Part shown: positions 1,023 to 21,600 of the stretch, one piece after another | Position numbering within the stretch: position 1 is the first letter of the stretch | Layout: every line of letters starts with the position of its first letter | Virus genome (UHGV): UHGV-0379469 | Length of the DNA stretch: 35,405 nt | Direction: 5' to 3' (one strand) | Source: a virus | Notes under the pieces: generated by a model | Seen by the model: only the letters and a program-made list of their open reading frames with translations | Told to the model about the DNA's origin: nothing | Database searches by the model: none | Program-made: the position numbers and the translations under genes

Positions 1023-1502
1023 CTAAGCCGCCCTCACGATATAGTTAAATGCAATATTGCGGGGGCGGGTTTCACTACCACCTGTGTTACCAATACTTCC
1101 TCGTGAATGAAGCGTTGGTGATGGAATCAAACTCCCTCCTGTATTTGTGGCATCAAGCCCCCTGCCTTGTGTATATGTTTTTTTGAAAATCGTGGCCAAC
1201 TCCCATTCATCCTTTGTGTCATATCCATCGTTAGCTACAACAATATGGCGGTGTTTTTCCAACATCCCGGTTTGAATGCTCAATAAAGCGCGTGCTGCAT
1301 CAATTCCTCGCCCATCATCCCAGCCACGGATAAATTCACCGCGTAAATCCGGTAATTTATTGGTGGGATAAGCCCTTGCCAGTCTGGGATACATTTCAGA
1401 AGAAAATGCTGCACCGTTACATTTCAGCCACCCCGTTGGCGGCGTGGCTGAGGGCCATGGAACGGGCACACCAACGGGCAGCGCAGAGCCTTCCCCCAAA
1501 CC
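1023..1502 (-). CDS. silent alternative tail-fibre C-terminal cassette (promoterless; would fuse to H after inversion)
   Basis: Minus-strand ORF whose first ~65 codons repeat the H junction peptide (GLGEGSALPVGVPVPW...RGWDDGRG) then diverge; own stop at 1023-1025; ends ...RPRNIAFNYIVRAA. Confidence 0.7.
   Translation of the reverse strand, partial: GLGEGSALPVGVPVPWPSATPPTGWLKCNGAAFSSEMYPRLARAYPTNKLPDLRGEFIRGWDDGRGIDAARALLSIQTGMLEKHRHIVVANDGYDTKDEWELATIFKKTYTQGRGLDATNTGGSLIPSPTLHSRGSIGNTGGSETRPRNIAFNYIVRAA
1309..1430. repeat. inverted repeat, right copy (perfect core)
   Basis: Exact reverse complement of 16..137. Confidence 0.9.
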
Positions 1503-1516
1503 AACGTTTTCGTTTT
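1491..1516. other. 26-bp hix/gix-like recombination crossover site (right)
   Basis: TTCCCCCAAACCAACGTTTTCGTTTT; its inner 14 bp (TTCCCCCAAACCAA) equal the reverse complement of the inner half of the site at 35335..35360; central AA dinucleotide; lies at the edge of the inverted repeat next to the invertase gene. Confidence 0.7.
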
Positions 1517-1570
1517 TATCCCTACCTATACCAACTATGTATTTTTCACGAAACAAAGAGGATGTTTTTT

Positions 1571-2170
1571 ATGCAAATTGGCTATATTCGTGTGTCAACA
1601 AATGACCAGAACACGGATTTACAACGCAATGCACTGAACTGCGCAGGATGTGAACTGATTTTTGAAGATAAAATCAGCGGAACGAAATCAGCCAGACCGG
1701 GATTGAAAAAACTGCTCAGAACGCTATCAGAAGGAGATACGCTGGTTGTCTGGAAGCTGGACAGACTGGGCAGAAGTATGAAACACCTGATCACGCTTAT
1801 TGAGGAATTGCGAGAAAAAGGTGTTAATTTCCGTAGTCTGACGGACAGCATTGACACATCAACACCCATGGGGCGTTTCTTTTTTCACGTCATGGGGGCT
1901 TTAGCCGAAATGGAACGTGAATTAATTGTAGAGCGTACACTGGCCGGGCTGGCAGCAGCACGCGAACAAGGACGCATTGGCGGACGTCGCCCGAAGTTGA
2001 CAAAAGAACAACACGAGCAAATAGCGAGGCTGATTAAAAACGGTCATGACAGGAAACAACTGGCGATCATTTACGACATCGGCATATCGACGATTTATCG
2101 TTATCACCCTGTAGGCGATATACAGGCTGAAGAAACAACCAGGCAGACTCAGGAAAATGAAAACCGCTAA
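1571..2170 (+). CDS. site-specific DNA invertase, serine recombinase of the Hin/Gin/Cin/Pin family
   Basis: MQIGYIRVSTNDQNTDLQRNAL... N-terminus with catalytic-serine motif, C-terminal HTH; ~199 aa; adjacent to the invertible segment. The ORF-track start at 1376 is an in-frame upstream extension. Confidence 0.9.
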   Translation: MQIGYIRVSTNDQNTDLQRNALNCAGCELIFEDKISGTKSARPGLKKLLRTLSEGDTLVVWKLDRLGRSMKHLITLIEELREKGVNFRSLTDSIDTSTPMGRFFFHVMGALAEMERELIVERTLAGLAAAREQGRIGGRRPKLTKEQHEQIARLIKNGHDRKQLAIIYDIGISTIYRYHPVGDIQAEETTRQTQENENR

Positions 2171-7782: not shown

Positions 7783-7939
7783 AGCTTCAGCCCCTTGTAT
7801 CCGTTAAATGATTCAGCAACAATCATCACCCACCACGCGCGTAATCTCACCCCTGCGCTATTCTCCCGCCACGGCGACAACAAAAAGCAGTAACCCCCTC
7901 CGCACGCACATGCGACCATGCCGCACAGGGAGGGAACAG

Positions 7940-9049
7940 ATGACCGACACCACCATGCAATTGCTCAGTCAGGGCACAGCCCCCGTGAAAATGCCGGATT
8001 TTGATATTCTCGCGGAGGGTAAAACGCTGTCAGGCGTGGCAGAGCGCCTGATGAGCCTGTCACTGACCGACAACCGGGGATTTGAGGCGGACCAGCTCAC
8101 CATCACGCTGGATGATGCGGATGGTCAGTTGCAGCTACCGCCACGGGGCGCGCGCCTGACGGTTCTCATTGGCTGGAAAGGAGAACCGCTGACAGAAAAA
8201 GGCACTTACATTGTTGATGAAATCGCTCACGAAGGACCGCCGGACAGGCTGACTGTTTCAGCCAGAAGCGCAGATTTTCGGGATGAATTTAACGTTAAAC
8301 GTGAGGTGTCCTGGCATGATGTGACCGTTGAGCGTGTGGTATCCGCCATCGCTCATCGGTATGGTCTGAAACCGCAAATCAGCGAAATGCTGATGGATAT
8401 CGAAATCGACCACGCCGACCAGACCGAAGAAAGCGACATGTCCTTCCTTACGCGCATGGCGGAAATGCTGGGCGCAATCACCACGGTAAAAAGCGGCAAT
8501 CTGTTATTCATCATGCCAGGTGGTGGCGTGAACGCGCAGGGCCAGCCGTTGCCCTCGTTCGCCATTACACGCAGCAGCGGCGATCGCCATCAGTTCCGCA
8601 TTGCTGACCGCGAGGCGTATACGGGGGTACGCGCTTACTGGCTTGATCTTAATTACGGGAAAAAGAAAAAAGTCAGCGTGAAACGCCGCAAACCGCCAAA
8701 ACCCAAAAAGGAGAAAAGCAGCAGCCGTGAAGGTGATTATATGGAAGGCGCGGAAGGCAATGTGTTTGTGTTACGCAAGACTTATCAGAACGAGCAGGCA
8801 GCAAGACGCGCAGCGGCGGCAAAGTGGCAGCAGCTACAACGCGGAGCTGCATCATTCTCCATCACGCTGGCGCGTGGACGTGCGGAACTCTACCCCGAAA
8901 TGCATGGCACGGTGACAGGCTTCAAAAGTGACATCGACAATCAGGACTGGATTATTGCAAAAGCCGAGCACACCATTGATAACAGCGGCTTTACCACGCA
9001 GCTTGAGCTTGAAGCAAAAATCCCGGAATGGATAGCAGAAACAGAGTGA
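7940..9049 (+). CDS. D: tail protein D (late control gene D family)
   Basis: ATG at 7940 preceded by AGGGAGGGAA; protein contains ...YTGVRAYWLD..., a Lys/Arg-rich linker and ...FSITLARGR...; ORF-track start 7808 rejected (upstream 44 codons are S/P/T/R-rich and lack an RBS). Confidence 0.8.
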   Translation: MTDTTMQLLSQGTAPVKMPDFDILAEGKTLSGVAERLMSLSLTDNRGFEADQLTITLDDADGQLQLPPRGARLTVLIGWKGEPLTEKGTYIVDEIAHEGPPDRLTVSARSADFRDEFNVKREVSWHDVTVERVVSAIAHRYGLKPQISEMLMDIEIDHADQTEESDMSFLTRMAEMLGAITTVKSGNLLFIMPGGGVNAQGQPLPSFAITRSSGDRHQFRIADREAYTGVRAYWLDLNYGKKKKVSVKRRKPPKPKKEKSSSREGDYMEGAEGNVFVLRKTYQNEQAARRAAAAKWQQLQRGAASFSITLARGRAELYPEMHGTVTGFKSDIDNQDWIIAKAEHTIDNSGFTTQLELEAKIPEWIAETE

Positions 9050-9118
9050 GCAACTTAGATATATTAGCTCAGACTTAAGCTGGCAAGTTTACAGTATAGA
9101 ATTAAACATAAACGACGG

Positions 9119-9140
9119 TCCGCTCCGTGCCAGAAGCGGA
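9119..9140. terminator. weak hairpin between convergent D and cargo gene
   Basis: GTCCGCT..AGCGGAC stem followed by TTTG. Confidence 0.25.
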
Positions 9141-9169
9141 CTTTGTCATCCCCATGTAAGGTTGATTGC

Positions 9170-10192
9170 TTAATACGCATTTAATTTAAATTTGTATTTG
9201 CTTTCTATGTAATGGATAAATTCAATTATGCTTTTTTCTATCGCGTCTAATATATGAATATATCCATCCCGATTTAAGGTCCTATCCAACTCAAAATGAT
9301 GAACTATCCCATGTCTATATTGTATGATTTCAGAAATTCGATTCTCAAGGTAATCAACTGATTTTCCAATTCTTTTTTTCTTATAAAGAATCGCTCTCAC
9401 ATCTATATCTAGCCACTCTTTATATGCTTTGTTTAGGAGGGTTAAGTTTTGAAAAGTGTAATTTCTTGCAATAACACTTTCTATTGAAATATTTCCTTTC
9501 TCTATCTCAAGCAGAATATCAAAATCAACTTTTTGCTTATACGATGTTCTTTTTGCTATTGCGAAAGGATCGTACTTTATAAGTATTTGAAAAGCTCTAG
9601 AGAAAAAATATTCAAACATAGCAACCGCAAAAGGTACTAATCCATTATATATAACTCTACTGGGATCCATACATTGCATATCATCAAAGTATTCGGATAA
9701 GCCGCCATCTTCCGGCAGGTTTAATTTAATAGAAGGTTCAGGTAAGGCATGTTTAACAGCGGAAATCTCATGATGAACATGATTAAATATTGAAGAAATG
9801 CCACGACTGATCGGACTACTAGAATCCCCCCATAGAGGAGCGTATCTATTTTTCCCATAATCACCTATAAGTGTTCCACCAAAAAGACTCCTTGCGCCTT
9901 TTAGAACATCATTAAGCATTTTTACATCATGCCAACTAGCGCTAGATAAATTACGCACATGCAATGCCCATTTATTACCAGATATGTGTAGTTCGTCATT
10001 TGAAACAGGATATATATCAGCCGAAACTCCATCTGTAGATTTGAAGTCCGTATCATCAAACCAAGAGTAATTTAACGTTCCTTGGGGCCATTCCCACAAA
10101 TGTTTACACCTTTTAAAACCTAAATTTTCAAGATAATTTTTAAGTTCGTTTCTAGTTGCTTTTTTAGGGTACAGCGTTATATCTCTTCCCAT
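9170..10192 (-). CDS. hypothetical protein, AT-rich cargo gene; candidate anti-phage defence or abortive-infection protein
   Basis: 340-aa ORF with AGGTG RBS; much more AT-rich than the flanking phage genes; convergent with D and divergent from ogr; C-terminal RHGIVHH fits the Rx4-6H HEPN motif; no family recognised. Confidence 0.6.
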   Translation of the reverse strand: MGRDITLYPKKATRNELKNYLENLGFKRCKHLWEWPQGTLNYSWFDDTDFKSTDGVSADIYPVSNDELHISGNKWALHVRNLSSASWHDVKMLNDVLKGARSLFGGTLIGDYGKNRYAPLWGDSSSPISRGISSIFNHVHHEISAVKHALPEPSIKLNLPEDGGLSEYFDDMQCMDPSRVIYNGLVPFAVAMFEYFFSRAFQILIKYDPFAIAKRTSYKQKVDFDILLEIEKGNISIESVIARNYTFQNLTLLNKAYKEWLDIDVRAILYKKKRIGKSVDYLENRISEIIQYRHGIVHHFELDRTLNRDGYIHILDAIEKSIIEFIHYIESKYKFKLNAY

Positions 10193-10383
10193 GCTTTATT
10201 CACCTGACATACAATATTTTACATTTTAACTATCATGAACGTATGAATTTTTACATTGGATGTATGGAAGTTCAACAGCTATTGAAAGTTCAATTTTCAC
10301 TCTTCGCACAGAGCGAGCTGTTAGTTGGAATTAGGGATCGTACAATCTAGAATAGCGGCAGCACCACGTTAAGGGAGGTCGCT

Positions 10384-10644
10384 ATGTTCCGTTGTCCGCT
10401 TTGTGGCGCATCTGCCCGTATCCGCACAAGTCGTCCGGAAAATGATTCAAACACCGTGCGGCAAAAGTATTACCAGTGTAACAATCTGGAATGCGGCGTA
10501 TGCTTCTCAACACTGGAAGCTTTCCATAAATTCACATCGAAACAAGCCTCCGGCGTTCACTCTTCAGAAGGTATCCCGTGGCATGAGCTGCCAGCTTCAC
10601 ACAGGGGAAACAATCAGATGAGTTTGCCTTTACCTCAGAATTAA
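10384..10644 (+). CDS. ogr: Ogr/Delta-type zinc-finger late-gene transcription activator
   Basis: MFRCPLCGASARIRTSR...YYQCNNLECGVCFST: four-Cys zinc finger in the Ogr arrangement; located after D as in P2. Confidence 0.85.
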   Translation: MFRCPLCGASARIRTSRPENDSNTVRQKYYQCNNLECGVCFSTLEAFHKFTSKQASGVHSSEGIPWHELPASHRGNNQMSLPLPQN

Positions 10645-10834: not shown

Positions 10835-10975
10835 ATGTCGCAAAAATCGCTTACGGCCATCACGTTCTGCGTGACGGTAATCCTCATCATCTGGATGTTA
10901 CACGGTTCGCTGTGCGAAATACGGATGAGCTTCTGGGGAGCGGAGTTTGCGGCGTTCTTACAGTGTAAGCAGTAA
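10835..10975 (+). CDS. hok: Hok/Gef-family type I toxin (small membrane peptide)
   Basis: 46-aa ORF MSQKSLTAITFCVTVILIIWMLHGSLCEIRMSFWGAEFAAFLQCKQ: N-terminal TM helix plus SLCE(I/L)R...E(V/L)AAF signature of Hok peptides; not in the ORF track because it is short; flanked by strong hairpins. Confidence 0.7.
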   Translation: MSQKSLTAITFCVTVILIIWMLHGSLCEIRMSFWGAEFAAFLQCKQ

Positions 10976-11110: not shown

Positions 11111-11407
11111 ATGAGTGAAATGGTATTTTGTCGCGGATGCGGCAAGGAAATACATAAAGATGCCACATCCTGCCCCAATTGTGGAGCACCTCAAAGAACA
11201 GCAAGTTCAAAAAGCAGAATGACAGCCGCACTACTGGCTTTCTTTTTAGGTGGTCTTGGTGCACACAAATTTTATTTAGGTAAAGTGGGGCAAGGATTCC
11301 TTTACCTTATTTTTTGCTGGACATTCATTCCGGCAATCGTGGCATTTATTGAGTTTTTTATCTATCTATGCACCTCTGATGAAGATTTCGCCCGCAAATA
11401 TGGCTGA
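11111..11407 (+). CDS. zinc-ribbon + TM2-domain small membrane protein (cargo)
   Basis: N-terminal CxxC...CPNC zinc ribbon followed by two hydrophobic helices (LLAFFLGGLGAHKFYLG...) typical of TM2-domain proteins. Confidence 0.7.
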   Translation: MSEMVFCRGCGKEIHKDATSCPNCGAPQRTASSKSRMTAALLAFFLGGLGAHKFYLGKVGQGFLYLIFCWTFIPAIVAFIEFFIYLCTSDEDFARKYG

Positions 11408-20324: not shown

Positions 20325-21284
20325 ATGAAAATTTGTATCGACGACGGCTCCACCAACATCAAGCTGGCATGGACTGAGAACGGCGAACGCCGCAACGCCA
20401 TCAGCCCGAACAGCTTCAAGTCGGAATGGTCTGCGCCGTTCGGTGGCACGCAGCCCGCGAACTACATGCTTGATAGCGTGCGCTATGGTTTTGATCCGGT
20501 CAGCGATCGCTTTGTCCAGACGACTGACACGCAATATCAGTACAGTGATGTGAATGTCATTGCCATTCATCACGCGCTGGTCAAATCAGGCATCACGCCA
20601 CAGGAGGTGGATGTGGTTGTCACCCTGCCACTGAGCGAGTATTTCGACACAAACGCACAGCCGGACATGGCCAACATCAACCGCAAAAAAGCGAACGTTA
20701 TGCGCCCGGTGGAATACCAGAACGGCGAAGCATTCACTATCCGTAATGTACGGGTTATGCCTGAATCCATTCCGGCTGGCTTTAAGGCACTGGCTGACAT
20801 GAGTCCGTTTGAATCCCTGCTGATTGTGGATTTAGGCGGAACCACGCTGGATGTGGCAAAGGTTCAGGGACAACTGGCAGGTATCAGCCAGGTGTTTTGC
20901 GATCCACACGTAGGCGTTTCCCTGATGGCCGATGCCGTACTGTCGGTGATGGCCACTAACGGTATGCGTACCAGTCACCACATCGCCAATACCATTATTG
21001 AGCACCGTCACGATGAAGCCTGGCTGCGCCAGCACATTCACAATGACGCGCATTACAACAGCCTGATGGCGGTTATTCGTGAAAAGGAGGAGACACTGAA
21101 ACAACGAGTGATCCGCGCGCTGGCGGGTTTTTCCGGTTACGGGCGGGTGATGGTTGTCGGTGGAGGGGCGGAGATTGTGGCACCCGCTATCCGCGAAGCC
21201 TGCGGAGTTAATGCGACTTTCATCGCGGACGGGGTGCCACAATTTGCTCTGGTTAATGGGCTGTACGCAATGAACAAGGAGTAA
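20325..21284 (+). CDS. parM: ParM/StbA actin-like partition ATPase
   Basis: MKICIDDGSTNIKLAW... N-terminus and ...DLGGTTLD..., ...VMVVGGGAE..., ...LVNGLYAM motifs aligning with plasmid R1 ParM as recalled. Confidence 0.8.
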   Translation: MKICIDDGSTNIKLAWTENGERRNAISPNSFKSEWSAPFGGTQPANYMLDSVRYGFDPVSDRFVQTTDTQYQYSDVNVIAIHHALVKSGITPQEVDVVVTLPLSEYFDTNAQPDMANINRKKANVMRPVEYQNGEAFTIRNVRVMPESIPAGFKALADMSPFESLLIVDLGGTTLDVAKVQGQLAGISQVFCDPHVGVSLMADAVLSVMATNGMRTSHHIANTIIEHRHDEAWLRQHIHNDAHYNSLMAVIREKEETLKQRVIRALAGFSGYGRVMVVGGGAEIVAPAIREACGVNATFIADGVPQFALVNGLYAMNKE

Positions 21285-21288
21285 ACCA

Positions 21289-21600
21289 ATGACGACACCA
21301 ACCAGAAGAATAAGTTTCTATCTGAAGCCAGCTGCCGTCAAGAACGAAGGAGAAGCATGCGCCTGGCTGGACAGCCTTACACCAGAAGCCCGCAAAAGCG
21401 GCCAACGCGTGGCTTTTCTGGCCGGGCTGGCACTTCTGAAGACGAATCCGGCAGAGGCTTACCGACTGGCCGCATGGGCTGATGATGAGATGTTACCTGT
21501 GACACAAATCAGCTCAAAAAAGTTTGAAGCACAGTCTGCACCAGTGGCTAAGATAACCAGCCAGATGGCTGGGAATATCCGGGCGTTATTTCCTGAGTAA
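21289..21600 (+). CDS. parR: ParR/StbB-like partition adaptor (DNA-binding)
   Basis: 103 aa directly after parM; RRISFYLKP...LAGLALL...RALFPE pattern resembles ParR. Confidence 0.6.
   Translation: MTTPTRRISFYLKPAAVKNEGEACAWLDSLTPEARKSGQRVAFLAGLALLKTNPAEAYRLAAWADDEMLPVTQISSKKFEAQSAPVAKITSQMAGNIRALFPE

What the first reader, a model, noticed from the sequence alone, without database searches (positions are those of the whole stretch)
9050..10383. AT-rich single-gene cargo island between D and ogr: candidate defence / abortive-infection protein
The 340-aa ORF at 9170..10192 is far more AT-rich than the phage backbone and is transcribed against the flanking late genes. It sits in an inter-module position where P2-like phages do not normally carry a gene, as I recall. 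Its C-terminus carries RHGIVHH, fitting the Rx4-6H HEPN RNase motif, and I recognise no phage-core function. Composition, position and motif together suggest a horizontally acquired, possibly undescribed, anti-phage or toxin-like gene.
Basis: partly seen in the sequence, partly recalled or inferred. Interest (0 to 1): 0.7.

Follow-up and report, generated by a model that had tools for sequence, protein, structure and literature searches.

The report
Prophage cargo gene encoding HEPN RNase
A P2-like E. coli phage carries, in a swap-in slot between two core genes, a single foreign gene for a predicted RNA-cutting (HEPN) protein that most likely protects the host against other phages; this is an expected kind of gene, but this family has not been tested.

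Summary
ORF 9170..10192 (-) encodes 340 aa, has 33.5% GC against a 53% backbone, lies antisense between gpD and ogr, and carries RHGIVHH at residues 293-299.

It sits on 1292 bp of extra DNA relative to the empty D-ogr junction. It has its own terminator and no partner ORF.

The protein has two domains:
- Residues 1-112 form an alpha/beta domain with no Pfam match. Its fold is a generic KA1/TBP/ZipA-like sandwich.

R293, H298, E194 and D89 are invariant across 54 relatives of 19-62% identity. No PADLOC, PHROG, NCBIfam or PDB-sequence match was found, and I found no experimental paper.

The gene is in 65 of 5426 complete E. coli genomes, always at this site. In related prophages the same slot is empty, or holds a GmrSD-like enzyme, a Thoeris pair, a PIN protein, DUF3800, HxsABCD or unknown genes.

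Homologues elsewhere are AT-rich, partnerless cargo of phages, islands and small islets.

Most likely it is a stand-alone sensor-plus-RNase abortive-infection protein. That function is inferred, not shown. It is a new member of a known kind, of moderate interest.

The parts
9050..9059 (+). Left copy of the junction repeat GCAACTTAGA, directly after the gpD stop codon
   Evidence: Comparison with the empty site L005: homology runs to 9059
9060..9094 (+). Left border of the cargo slot (TATATTAGCTCAGACTTAAGCTGGCAAGTTTACAG). It is shared with unrelated cargos in sister prophages and absent from the empty site
   Evidence: Border comparison of 10 loci
9118..9141 (-). Intrinsic terminator hairpin of the cargo gene: 9-bp stem with 6 GC pairs, followed by a T-rich tail
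   Evidence: Terminator scan; RNA fold -25.1 kcal/mol, z = -3.8
9170..10192 (-). Cargo gene: 340-aa two-domain protein (stop codon included)
9857..10192 (-). N-terminal alpha/beta domain, residues 1-112, with invariant D89 and near-invariant S86, N94, G105, G106. Inferred sensor or regulatory module
9194..9694 (-). HEPN helical domain, residues 167-333, with invariant E194
9296..9316 (-). RHGIVHH, the Rx4H catalytic motif (R293, H298 invariant; H294 near-invariant)
10193..10304 (-). AT-rich 5' region of the cargo gene, with an RBS-like GGTGA 8 nt before the ATG. The promoter was not located with confidence
   Evidence: Sequence; no - strand site in this stretch passed the promoter scan
10305..10347 (+). 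Right border of the cargo slot, conserved among unrelated cargos. It contains a -35-like TTGGAA (10325..10330)
10342..10351 (+). Right, degenerate copy of the junction repeat (ACAATCTAGA, 7 of 10). TAGA at 10348..10351 duplicates 9056..9059
10348..10383 (+). Backbone upstream of ogr, kept intact: -10-like TAGAAT (10348..10353) and the ogr RBS
   Evidence: Matches the empty site L005 without mismatch back to 10348; promoter-like site TTGGAA-17-TAGAAT

Best explanation
The 1292 bp added between gpD and ogr form a self-contained cargo cassette ('moron') of a Xuanwuvirus (P88-like, P2-related) temperate phage. It encodes one protein that combines an N-terminal alpha/beta domain with a C-terminal HEPN ribonuclease domain of the RiboL-PSP-HEPN/AbiD-AbiF-related group. 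The proposed mechanism has five steps. (1) The gene is transcribed on its own, against the late genes, probably in the lysogen. (2) The protein is kept inactive in uninfected cells. (3) A cue from a superinfecting phage is sensed through the N-terminal domain and allows two HEPN domains to form the composite R-x4-H active site. (4) The enzyme cuts RNA (tRNA, mRNA or rRNA) without needing a metal ion. (5) Translation stops and the infection aborts, which protects the lysogen population and the resident prophage. Shown here: the cassette structure, the HEPN fold and invariant motif, purifying selection, the absence of a partner gene, and mobile AT-rich cargo status in a slot that holds known defence genes. 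Inferred: expression in lysogeny, RNase activity, dimerisation, the sensing role of the N-domain, and the anti-phage phenotype.
Against: There is no experimental data for any family member; paper searches found none. The query's own Pfam score (21.9 bits) is below the gathering cut-off of 28.4. No PADLOC model matches any of 54 relatives. Several homologue contexts are small islets among housekeeping genes with no recognisable defence neighbours. I did not compute an enrichment statistic against a control. The N-domain fold is generic, so a sensing role is only a guess. The promoter was not identified.
Confidence: 0.6

Rival explanations
1. It is an addiction or toxin module. The HEPN protein would be a toxin whose role is to stabilise the prophage or island (post-segregational killing), neutralised by an unrecognised antitoxin such as a small RNA, rather than to defend against phages.
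For: HEPN domains are common toxins of toxin-antitoxin pairs: HepT/MntA and RnlA/RnlB appear among the structural matches. The phage also carries hok/gef just downstream. Some homologues sit near TA-like genes: ParD and DUF4160/DUF2442.
Against: The insert contains no partner ORF. The only small ORF, 9064..9180, overlaps the terminator. No neighbour is conserved across 13 non-E. coli homologue loci. A fused N-terminal domain conserved with the HEPN domain in all relatives fits autoregulation better than a trans-acting antitoxin.
Confidence: 0.12
2. It serves the phage itself rather than the host. It could be an RNase that helps the lytic cycle or lysogeny control, or a counter-defence factor that degrades host immune RNAs or signals.
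For: It lies next to the late-gene activator ogr and is carried by phages. Antisense placement could couple its expression to late transcription.
Against: It is absent from about 95% of otherwise near-identical prophages, so the phage does not need it. Close homologues occur in non-phage islands and chromosomal islets. It is interchangeable with GmrSD-like and Thoeris cargo. There is no match in PHROGs or in BFVD viral structures.
Confidence: 0.1
3. It is a HEPN-fold protein with a role other than RNase, for example nucleotide or ligand binding, or a regulatory scaffold for another host or phage factor.
For: Some HEPN families are non-catalytic (PMC3710099). D89, S86 and N94 in the N-domain are as conserved as the HEPN motif, so the key activity could lie there.
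Against: According to PMC3710099, non-catalytic HEPN domains have typically lost the Rx4-6H motif. Here R, H and the upstream acidic residue are invariant down to 19% identity.
Confidence: 0.08

Closest known systems
Pfam PF18735 HEPN_RiboL-PSP ('Ribo L-PSP-HEPN' of Anantharaman et al. 2013, PMC3710099, described there as distantly related to AbiD/AbiF)
   Same: It is the only sequence family that matches. The match covers residues 181-330 of the query, 38 of 54 relatives match it, and the Rx4-6H motif is conserved.
   Different: The query scores below the gathering threshold. No endoribonuclease L-PSP domain is present: the N-terminal domain has no Pfam match and no YjgF-like structural match. 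The ParB operon association listed for that family is not seen here.
HepS of Salmonella prophage Gifsy-1 (PMC13043305; PDB 9oik)
RnlA/LsoA toxins (RNase LS type)
HEPN-containing E. coli defence systems PD-T4-2, PD-T4-5, PD-T7-3, ApeA and AbiD/F
   Same: These are HEPN effectors, often single genes, and often carried on P2-like prophages or plasmids (bioRxiv 10.1101/2022.05.12.491691; PMC10952713).
   Different: No PADLOC v2 model matches the query at E<=1, and none matches the 54 relatives beyond scattered single-member hits at E<=0.1.
P2 accessory-gene hotspots (old/tin between A and Q; Z/fun in the tail region; 'third hotspot' between a tail protein and CI)
   Same: It is a variable slot between conserved core genes that holds alternative defence cargo (PMC9122126; bioRxiv 10.1101/2024.10.15.618418; bioRxiv 10.64898/2026.02.27.708500). 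The D-ogr slot lies inside the region named as the third hotspot.
   Different: In the papers I read, the precise D-ogr junction, its conserved borders and its cargo list are not described. In this phage the classical A-Q hotspot holds ParM/StbB partition genes instead.

Membership tests
HEPN superfamily | Four-helix up-down bundle with an insert between the two helical hairpins | tested here: met
HEPN superfamily | Rx4-6H motif with a polar residue (N/D/H) after R, plus an upstream conserved acidic residue | tested here: met
   R293-H294-x3-H298. R293, H298 and E194 are invariant in 54 relatives of 19-62% identity, and position 294 is H or N. Criteria are from PMC3710099.
HEPN superfamily | Metal-independent RNase activity | not testable with these tools
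   Needs biochemistry.
Pfam PF18735 HEPN_RiboL-PSP | Score at or above the gathering threshold (28.4 bits) | tested here: inconclusive
   The query scores 21.9 bits, E 1.8e-4. 38 of 54 relatives match at E<=0.01, best 5.1e-9. Many close homologues carry a precomputed PF18735 hit.
Pfam PF18735 HEPN_RiboL-PSP | Fusion to an endoribonuclease L-PSP domain (the architecture that gave the family its name) | tested here: not met
HepS-type single-protein HEPN abortive infection | Prophage-encoded, single HEPN protein with no partner gene | tested here: met
HepS-type single-protein HEPN abortive infection | Sequence homology to HepS | tested here: not met
   Profiles A1 and A2 searched against all PDB chain sequences give no HEPN hit at E<=10.
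HepS-type single-protein HEPN abortive infection | Activation by a phage structural protein; tRNA anticodon cleavage; Abi phenotype | not testable with these tools
   Needs infection assays and RNA end mapping.
RnlA/LsoA type II toxin-antitoxin | Adjacent cognate antitoxin gene | tested here: not met
   The insert has no second credible ORF, and no neighbour is conserved among homologues.
RnlA/LsoA type II toxin-antitoxin | NTD-NRD-HEPN three-domain architecture and a family HMM match | tested here: not met
   There is one N-terminal domain only, and no RnlA-type Pfam hit.
Known defence families in PADLOC-DB v2.0.0 | HMM match to any model | tested here: not met
   No families match the query at E<=1. 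Across 54 relatives there are only five unrelated single-member chance hits.
Prophage defence-hotspot cargo | The same slot between the same core genes holds alternative, unrelated cargo that includes known defence genes | tested here: met
   Observed states of the slot: empty, a 201-aa gene, a 217/221-aa gene, DUF3800, HxsABCD, a GmrSD-domain protein, a PIN protein, and ThsA with a TIR protein. The borders are shared between these cargos.

The most novel reading that the evidence does not exclude
The family is a new stand-alone immune sensor-effector. Its family-specific N-terminal domain (invariant D89, S86, N94, GG105-106) would recognise a phage cue not used by known systems and unlock the HEPN RNase. 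In addition, the D-ogr junction would be a distinct cassette-exchange slot whose conserved borders carry the ogr promoter. That slot offers a small, clean set of further untested candidates (DUF3800, PIN, HxsABCD, and the 201-aa and 221-aa proteins).
Probability: 0.4. Interest if true: 0.55.

Novelty: new member of a known kind. Interest (0 to 1): 0.4.

Why it matters
If confirmed, this would add an easily testable single-gene defence family. The family spans 341 clusters at 50% identity across Gammaproteobacteria and occurs in pathogenic E. coli lineages such as IHE3034, O55:H7 DEC5A and an ST131 strain. It is invisible to the PADLOC v2 models. The finding also pins down a third cargo slot of P2-like phages at base-pair resolution, with conserved borders that could be used to mine further cargo. 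It would not change how prophage-encoded immunity is understood, because HEPN effectors in P2 hotspots are expected.

Tried and rejected
- PADLOC, PHROGs and NCBIfam scans of the query gave nothing. PADLOC on 54 relatives gave nothing.
- PDB sequence searches with both profiles gave only chance hits or none.
- The BFVD viral fold search gave nothing at E<=0.001. The afdb50 fold library was unavailable.
With A1 it returned only 7 viral loci.
- I considered that the N-terminal domain might be the L-PSP/YjgF domain implied by the Pfam name. I rejected this because there is no structural or HMM support.
- I looked for a partner or antitoxin ORF in the insert and among neighbours of homologues and found none.
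- I looked for the gene on plasmids and found none.
- Paper searches for 'RiboL-PSP', PF18735 and the protein accession found no functional study.
- I did not run the genome-contig scan or a formal defence-enrichment statistic.

Full report
**Observation**

It lies between gpD (7808..9049, +) and ogr (10384..10644, +). An E. coli chromosome that is 99.9% identical over this stretch carries the same two annotations.

GC falls to 0.30-0.38 across the gene, against 0.53-0.58 in the tail genes. The ORF is 33.5% GC, the unique insert 34.5%, and the rest of the window 53.0%. RHGIVHH is residues 293-299, nt 9296..9316.

The phage is a Xuanwuvirus (P88-like Peduoviridae). Its best matches are PhiR44_2 and P884B11 at about 96% identity.

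**The cassette**

I compared the window with a sister prophage in which the D stop codon and the ogr ATG are 42 bp apart (L005).
- Homology runs to 9059 on the left and resumes at 10348 on the right, with TAGA present at both junctions.
- The window has 1334 bp between D and ogr, so 1292 bp are extra.
- A 9-bp-stem terminator lies 29 nt after the stop codon on the gene's strand (9141..9118). As RNA it folds at -25.1 kcal/mol, z = -3.8.
- A GGTGA sits 8 nt before the ATG. No - strand promoter match passed the scan, and the region's promoter-like count is not above shuffles. The promoter is therefore unassigned.
- No other credible ORF fits in the insert. The 38-codon ORF at 9064..9180 overlaps the terminator.

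**The protein**

Among the standard libraries, only Pfam gives a hit: HEPN_RiboL-PSP (PF18735), E 1.8e-4, 21.9 bits against a cut-off of 28.4, over residues 181-330. PADLOC, PHROGs and NCBIfam give nothing.

The family is real and well conserved.
- There are 292 word-indexed hits, nearly all about 340 aa. They are 63-86% identical to the query in Pantoea, Proteus, Shewanella, Aeromonas, Pseudomonas, Methylococcaceae and Halochromatium.
- A profile search of 1.84 billion cluster representatives finds 341 clusters at E<=0.001. The full-length ones all cover both halves of the protein.
- In an alignment of 54 full-length members (19-62% identical to the query), the invariant residues are D89, E194, R293 and H298.
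- The near-invariant residues include G55, S86, N94, F104, G105, G106, G113, N183, F247, Q248 and H294. The few sequences that lack H294 have N there.
- This matches the HEPN active-site description of Anantharaman et al.: Rx4-6H, a polar N/D/H after the R, and an upstream acidic residue (PMC3710099).
- 38 of the 54 members match PF18735, best E 5.1e-9. No Pfam model matches the N-terminal half.

The AlphaFold2 model (36-sequence alignment, pLDDT 84.7, pTM 0.65) has three parts:
- a beta-alpha-beta3-alpha-beta domain at residues 1-112;
- a disordered loop at 112-122, followed by a long helix at 127-149;
- a helical bundle at 167-333, with a beta-hairpin just before the motif helix.

Sequence profiles find no solved relative. 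BFVD viral structures give nothing significant.

**Selection and mobility**

Against the Pantoea homologue, dN/dS is 0.07. Against more distant homologues, pN is 0.18-0.24 with synonymous sites saturated.

The gene is AT-rich relative to its flanks in all nine loci tested. Examples are 0.37 versus 0.60 in Aeromonas and 0.48 versus 0.63 in Halochromatium.

In complete E. coli genomes the insert occurs in 65 of 5426. It is always whole, single-copy and chromosomal, at 97.6-99.9% identity, and always has the D and ogr flanks. It is absent from PLSDB plasmids. In the phage collection it occurs only in Escherichia phage 500465-2.

**The slot is a cargo hotspot**

Of 1206 E. coli records matching the flanks, an evenly spaced sample of 40 gave the following:
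- about 55% empty junctions;
- 3 with this gene;
- 3 with other small genes;
- about a quarter matching only from the right junction onwards.

Fetching examples showed these alternative cargos at the same place:
- a 201-aa protein and 217/221-aa proteins with hydrophobic N-termini;
- a DUF3800 protein, with or without an IS5;
- the four-gene HxsABCD radical-SAM system;
- a GmrSD restriction-endonuclease-domain protein;
- a 500-aa PIN-domain protein;
- a TIR protein next to a 208-aa protein that matches ThsA at E 2.8e-88, which makes a Thoeris pair, with an IS3 and a group II intron between it and ogr. In this case gpD is not in the stretch I fetched.

All cargo-bearing variants share short border sequences that the empty site lacks.
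- The left border follows GCAACTTAGA and reads TG(C/T)ATTAGCTCAGAC.
- The right border reads CAGTTGGAGTCTGAGC.AGTACAACTTAGA and is followed by the ogr leader.
- The empty site therefore looks like the product of loss between two CAACTTAGA copies. Cargo is probably swapped by recombination in the shared borders; this is an inference.
- The right border supplies a -35-like TTGGA(G/A) 17 bp upstream of the conserved TAGAAT (window 10325..10353). This may be the ogr promoter, but it is untested.

[quoted passage not shown] Minor P2 hotspots 'within the late genes' and near int/att are also reported (bioRxiv 10.64898/2026.02.27.708500). Rousset et al. analysed only the A-Q hotspot (PMC9122126). In this window the A-Q hotspot carries ParM/StbB partition genes.

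**Homologues elsewhere**

Phage and mobile-element contexts:
- A second P2-like phage carries an 80%-identical copy among its tail-fibre and assembly genes. Another viral contig carries an 83% copy next to umuDC-like genes and a tail protein.
- A Pantoea copy lies in a lambdoid prophage that also has a SIR2_2 gene.
- A Pseudomonas copy lies in an integrase/AlpA/DUF927 island beside a UvrD-type helicase.
- One metagenomic copy lies beside smpB with AbiTii, integrases and a type I RM system.
- Another sits in an element with an integrase, a DpnII-MboI endonuclease, ParA and a relaxase.

Other contexts:
- The remaining copies sit in small islets among housekeeping genes, some next to HNH, ParD, DUF4160/DUF2442 or IS110 genes.
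- No neighbour recurs between contexts.
- I did not compute an enrichment statistic.

**Interpretation**

The best reading is a stand-alone, horizontally mobile HEPN ribonuclease with a fused family-specific regulatory domain, carried as defence-type cargo. The closest functional model is HepS, a single HEPN protein of prophage Gifsy-1. HepS is allosterically activated by siphovirus tail-tip proteins and cuts tRNA anticodon loops (PMC13043305). The two share only the fold.

The family belongs to, or sits beside, Pfam's RiboL-PSP-HEPN group, which Anantharaman et al. call distantly related to AbiD/AbiF. It lacks the L-PSP fusion.

The resemblance to RnlA/LsoA in size and layout is weak, and there is no antitoxin gene. 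I consider the rivals less likely, for these reasons:
- an addiction toxin with a hidden antitoxin: no partner gene is present;
- a phage-serving RNase or counter-defence factor: most sister phages lack the gene;
- a non-catalytic HEPN: the catalytic residues are strictly kept.

**Verdict**

The function is still inferred.

This is a new, untested member of a well-known kind, a HEPN effector in a prophage cargo hotspot, so interest is moderate. The base-pair definition of the D-ogr slot and its other cargos is a useful by-product.

Noticed in passing
window 9050-9094 and 10305-10353; loci L002-L004, L025-L030: The D-ogr slot has conserved left and right border sequences shared by unrelated cargos and absent from the empty site. 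They are flanked by copies of CAACTTAGA. The right border provides a -35-like TTGGA(G/A) 17 bp upstream of a conserved TAGAAT in front of ogr.
   Followed up: partly
L028 2704-4287; L029 2791-4293; L027 3163-4332; L026 1443-4840; L030 1-969; L002 1803-2408; L003 1845-2510: Alternative cargos in the same slot in other E. coli prophages: a GmrSD-domain protein, a PIN-domain protein, DUF3800, HxsABCD, a Thoeris-like ThsA+TIR pair, a 201-aa unknown and a 221-aa unknown with a hydrophobic N-terminus. Several of these are untested candidates.
   Followed up: partly
window 10835-10975 and 11111-11407: There are two more accessory genes between ogr and the attP/integrase region: a Hok/Gef toxin (PF01848) and a 98-aa zinc-ribbon plus TM2-domain protein.
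   Followed up: partly
window 20325-21600: In this phage the classical P2 defence hotspot between replication gene A and portal gene Q carries a ParM/StbB-type partition pair rather than a defence system. The phage may therefore be able to persist as a plasmid.
   Followed up: partly
window 9062-9144: 83 bp at the 3' end of the insert, including the terminator hairpin, match at 77% identity an unannotated place in 8 E. coli chromosomes that lack the gene (H89-H92).
   Followed up: no
window 7808-9049; L001 19297-20150: RefSeq annotation calls gpD as only 266 aa and flags a short overlapping pseudogene fragment, whereas the ORF here extends up to 413 codons. The D start is probably mis-annotated in many records.
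   Followed up: no
window 1023-2170: A resolvase/invertase gene (PF00239 + HTH_7) lies next to oppositely oriented tail-fibre assembly genes, which indicates an invertible host-range segment. The tail sheath-to-U operon is inverted relative to gpD.
   Followed up: partly
L012 9121-12167: In the Pseudomonas island the homologue is followed by a 739-aa UvrD-type helicase and a 276-aa unknown protein. This pair might be another defence module.
   Followed up: no
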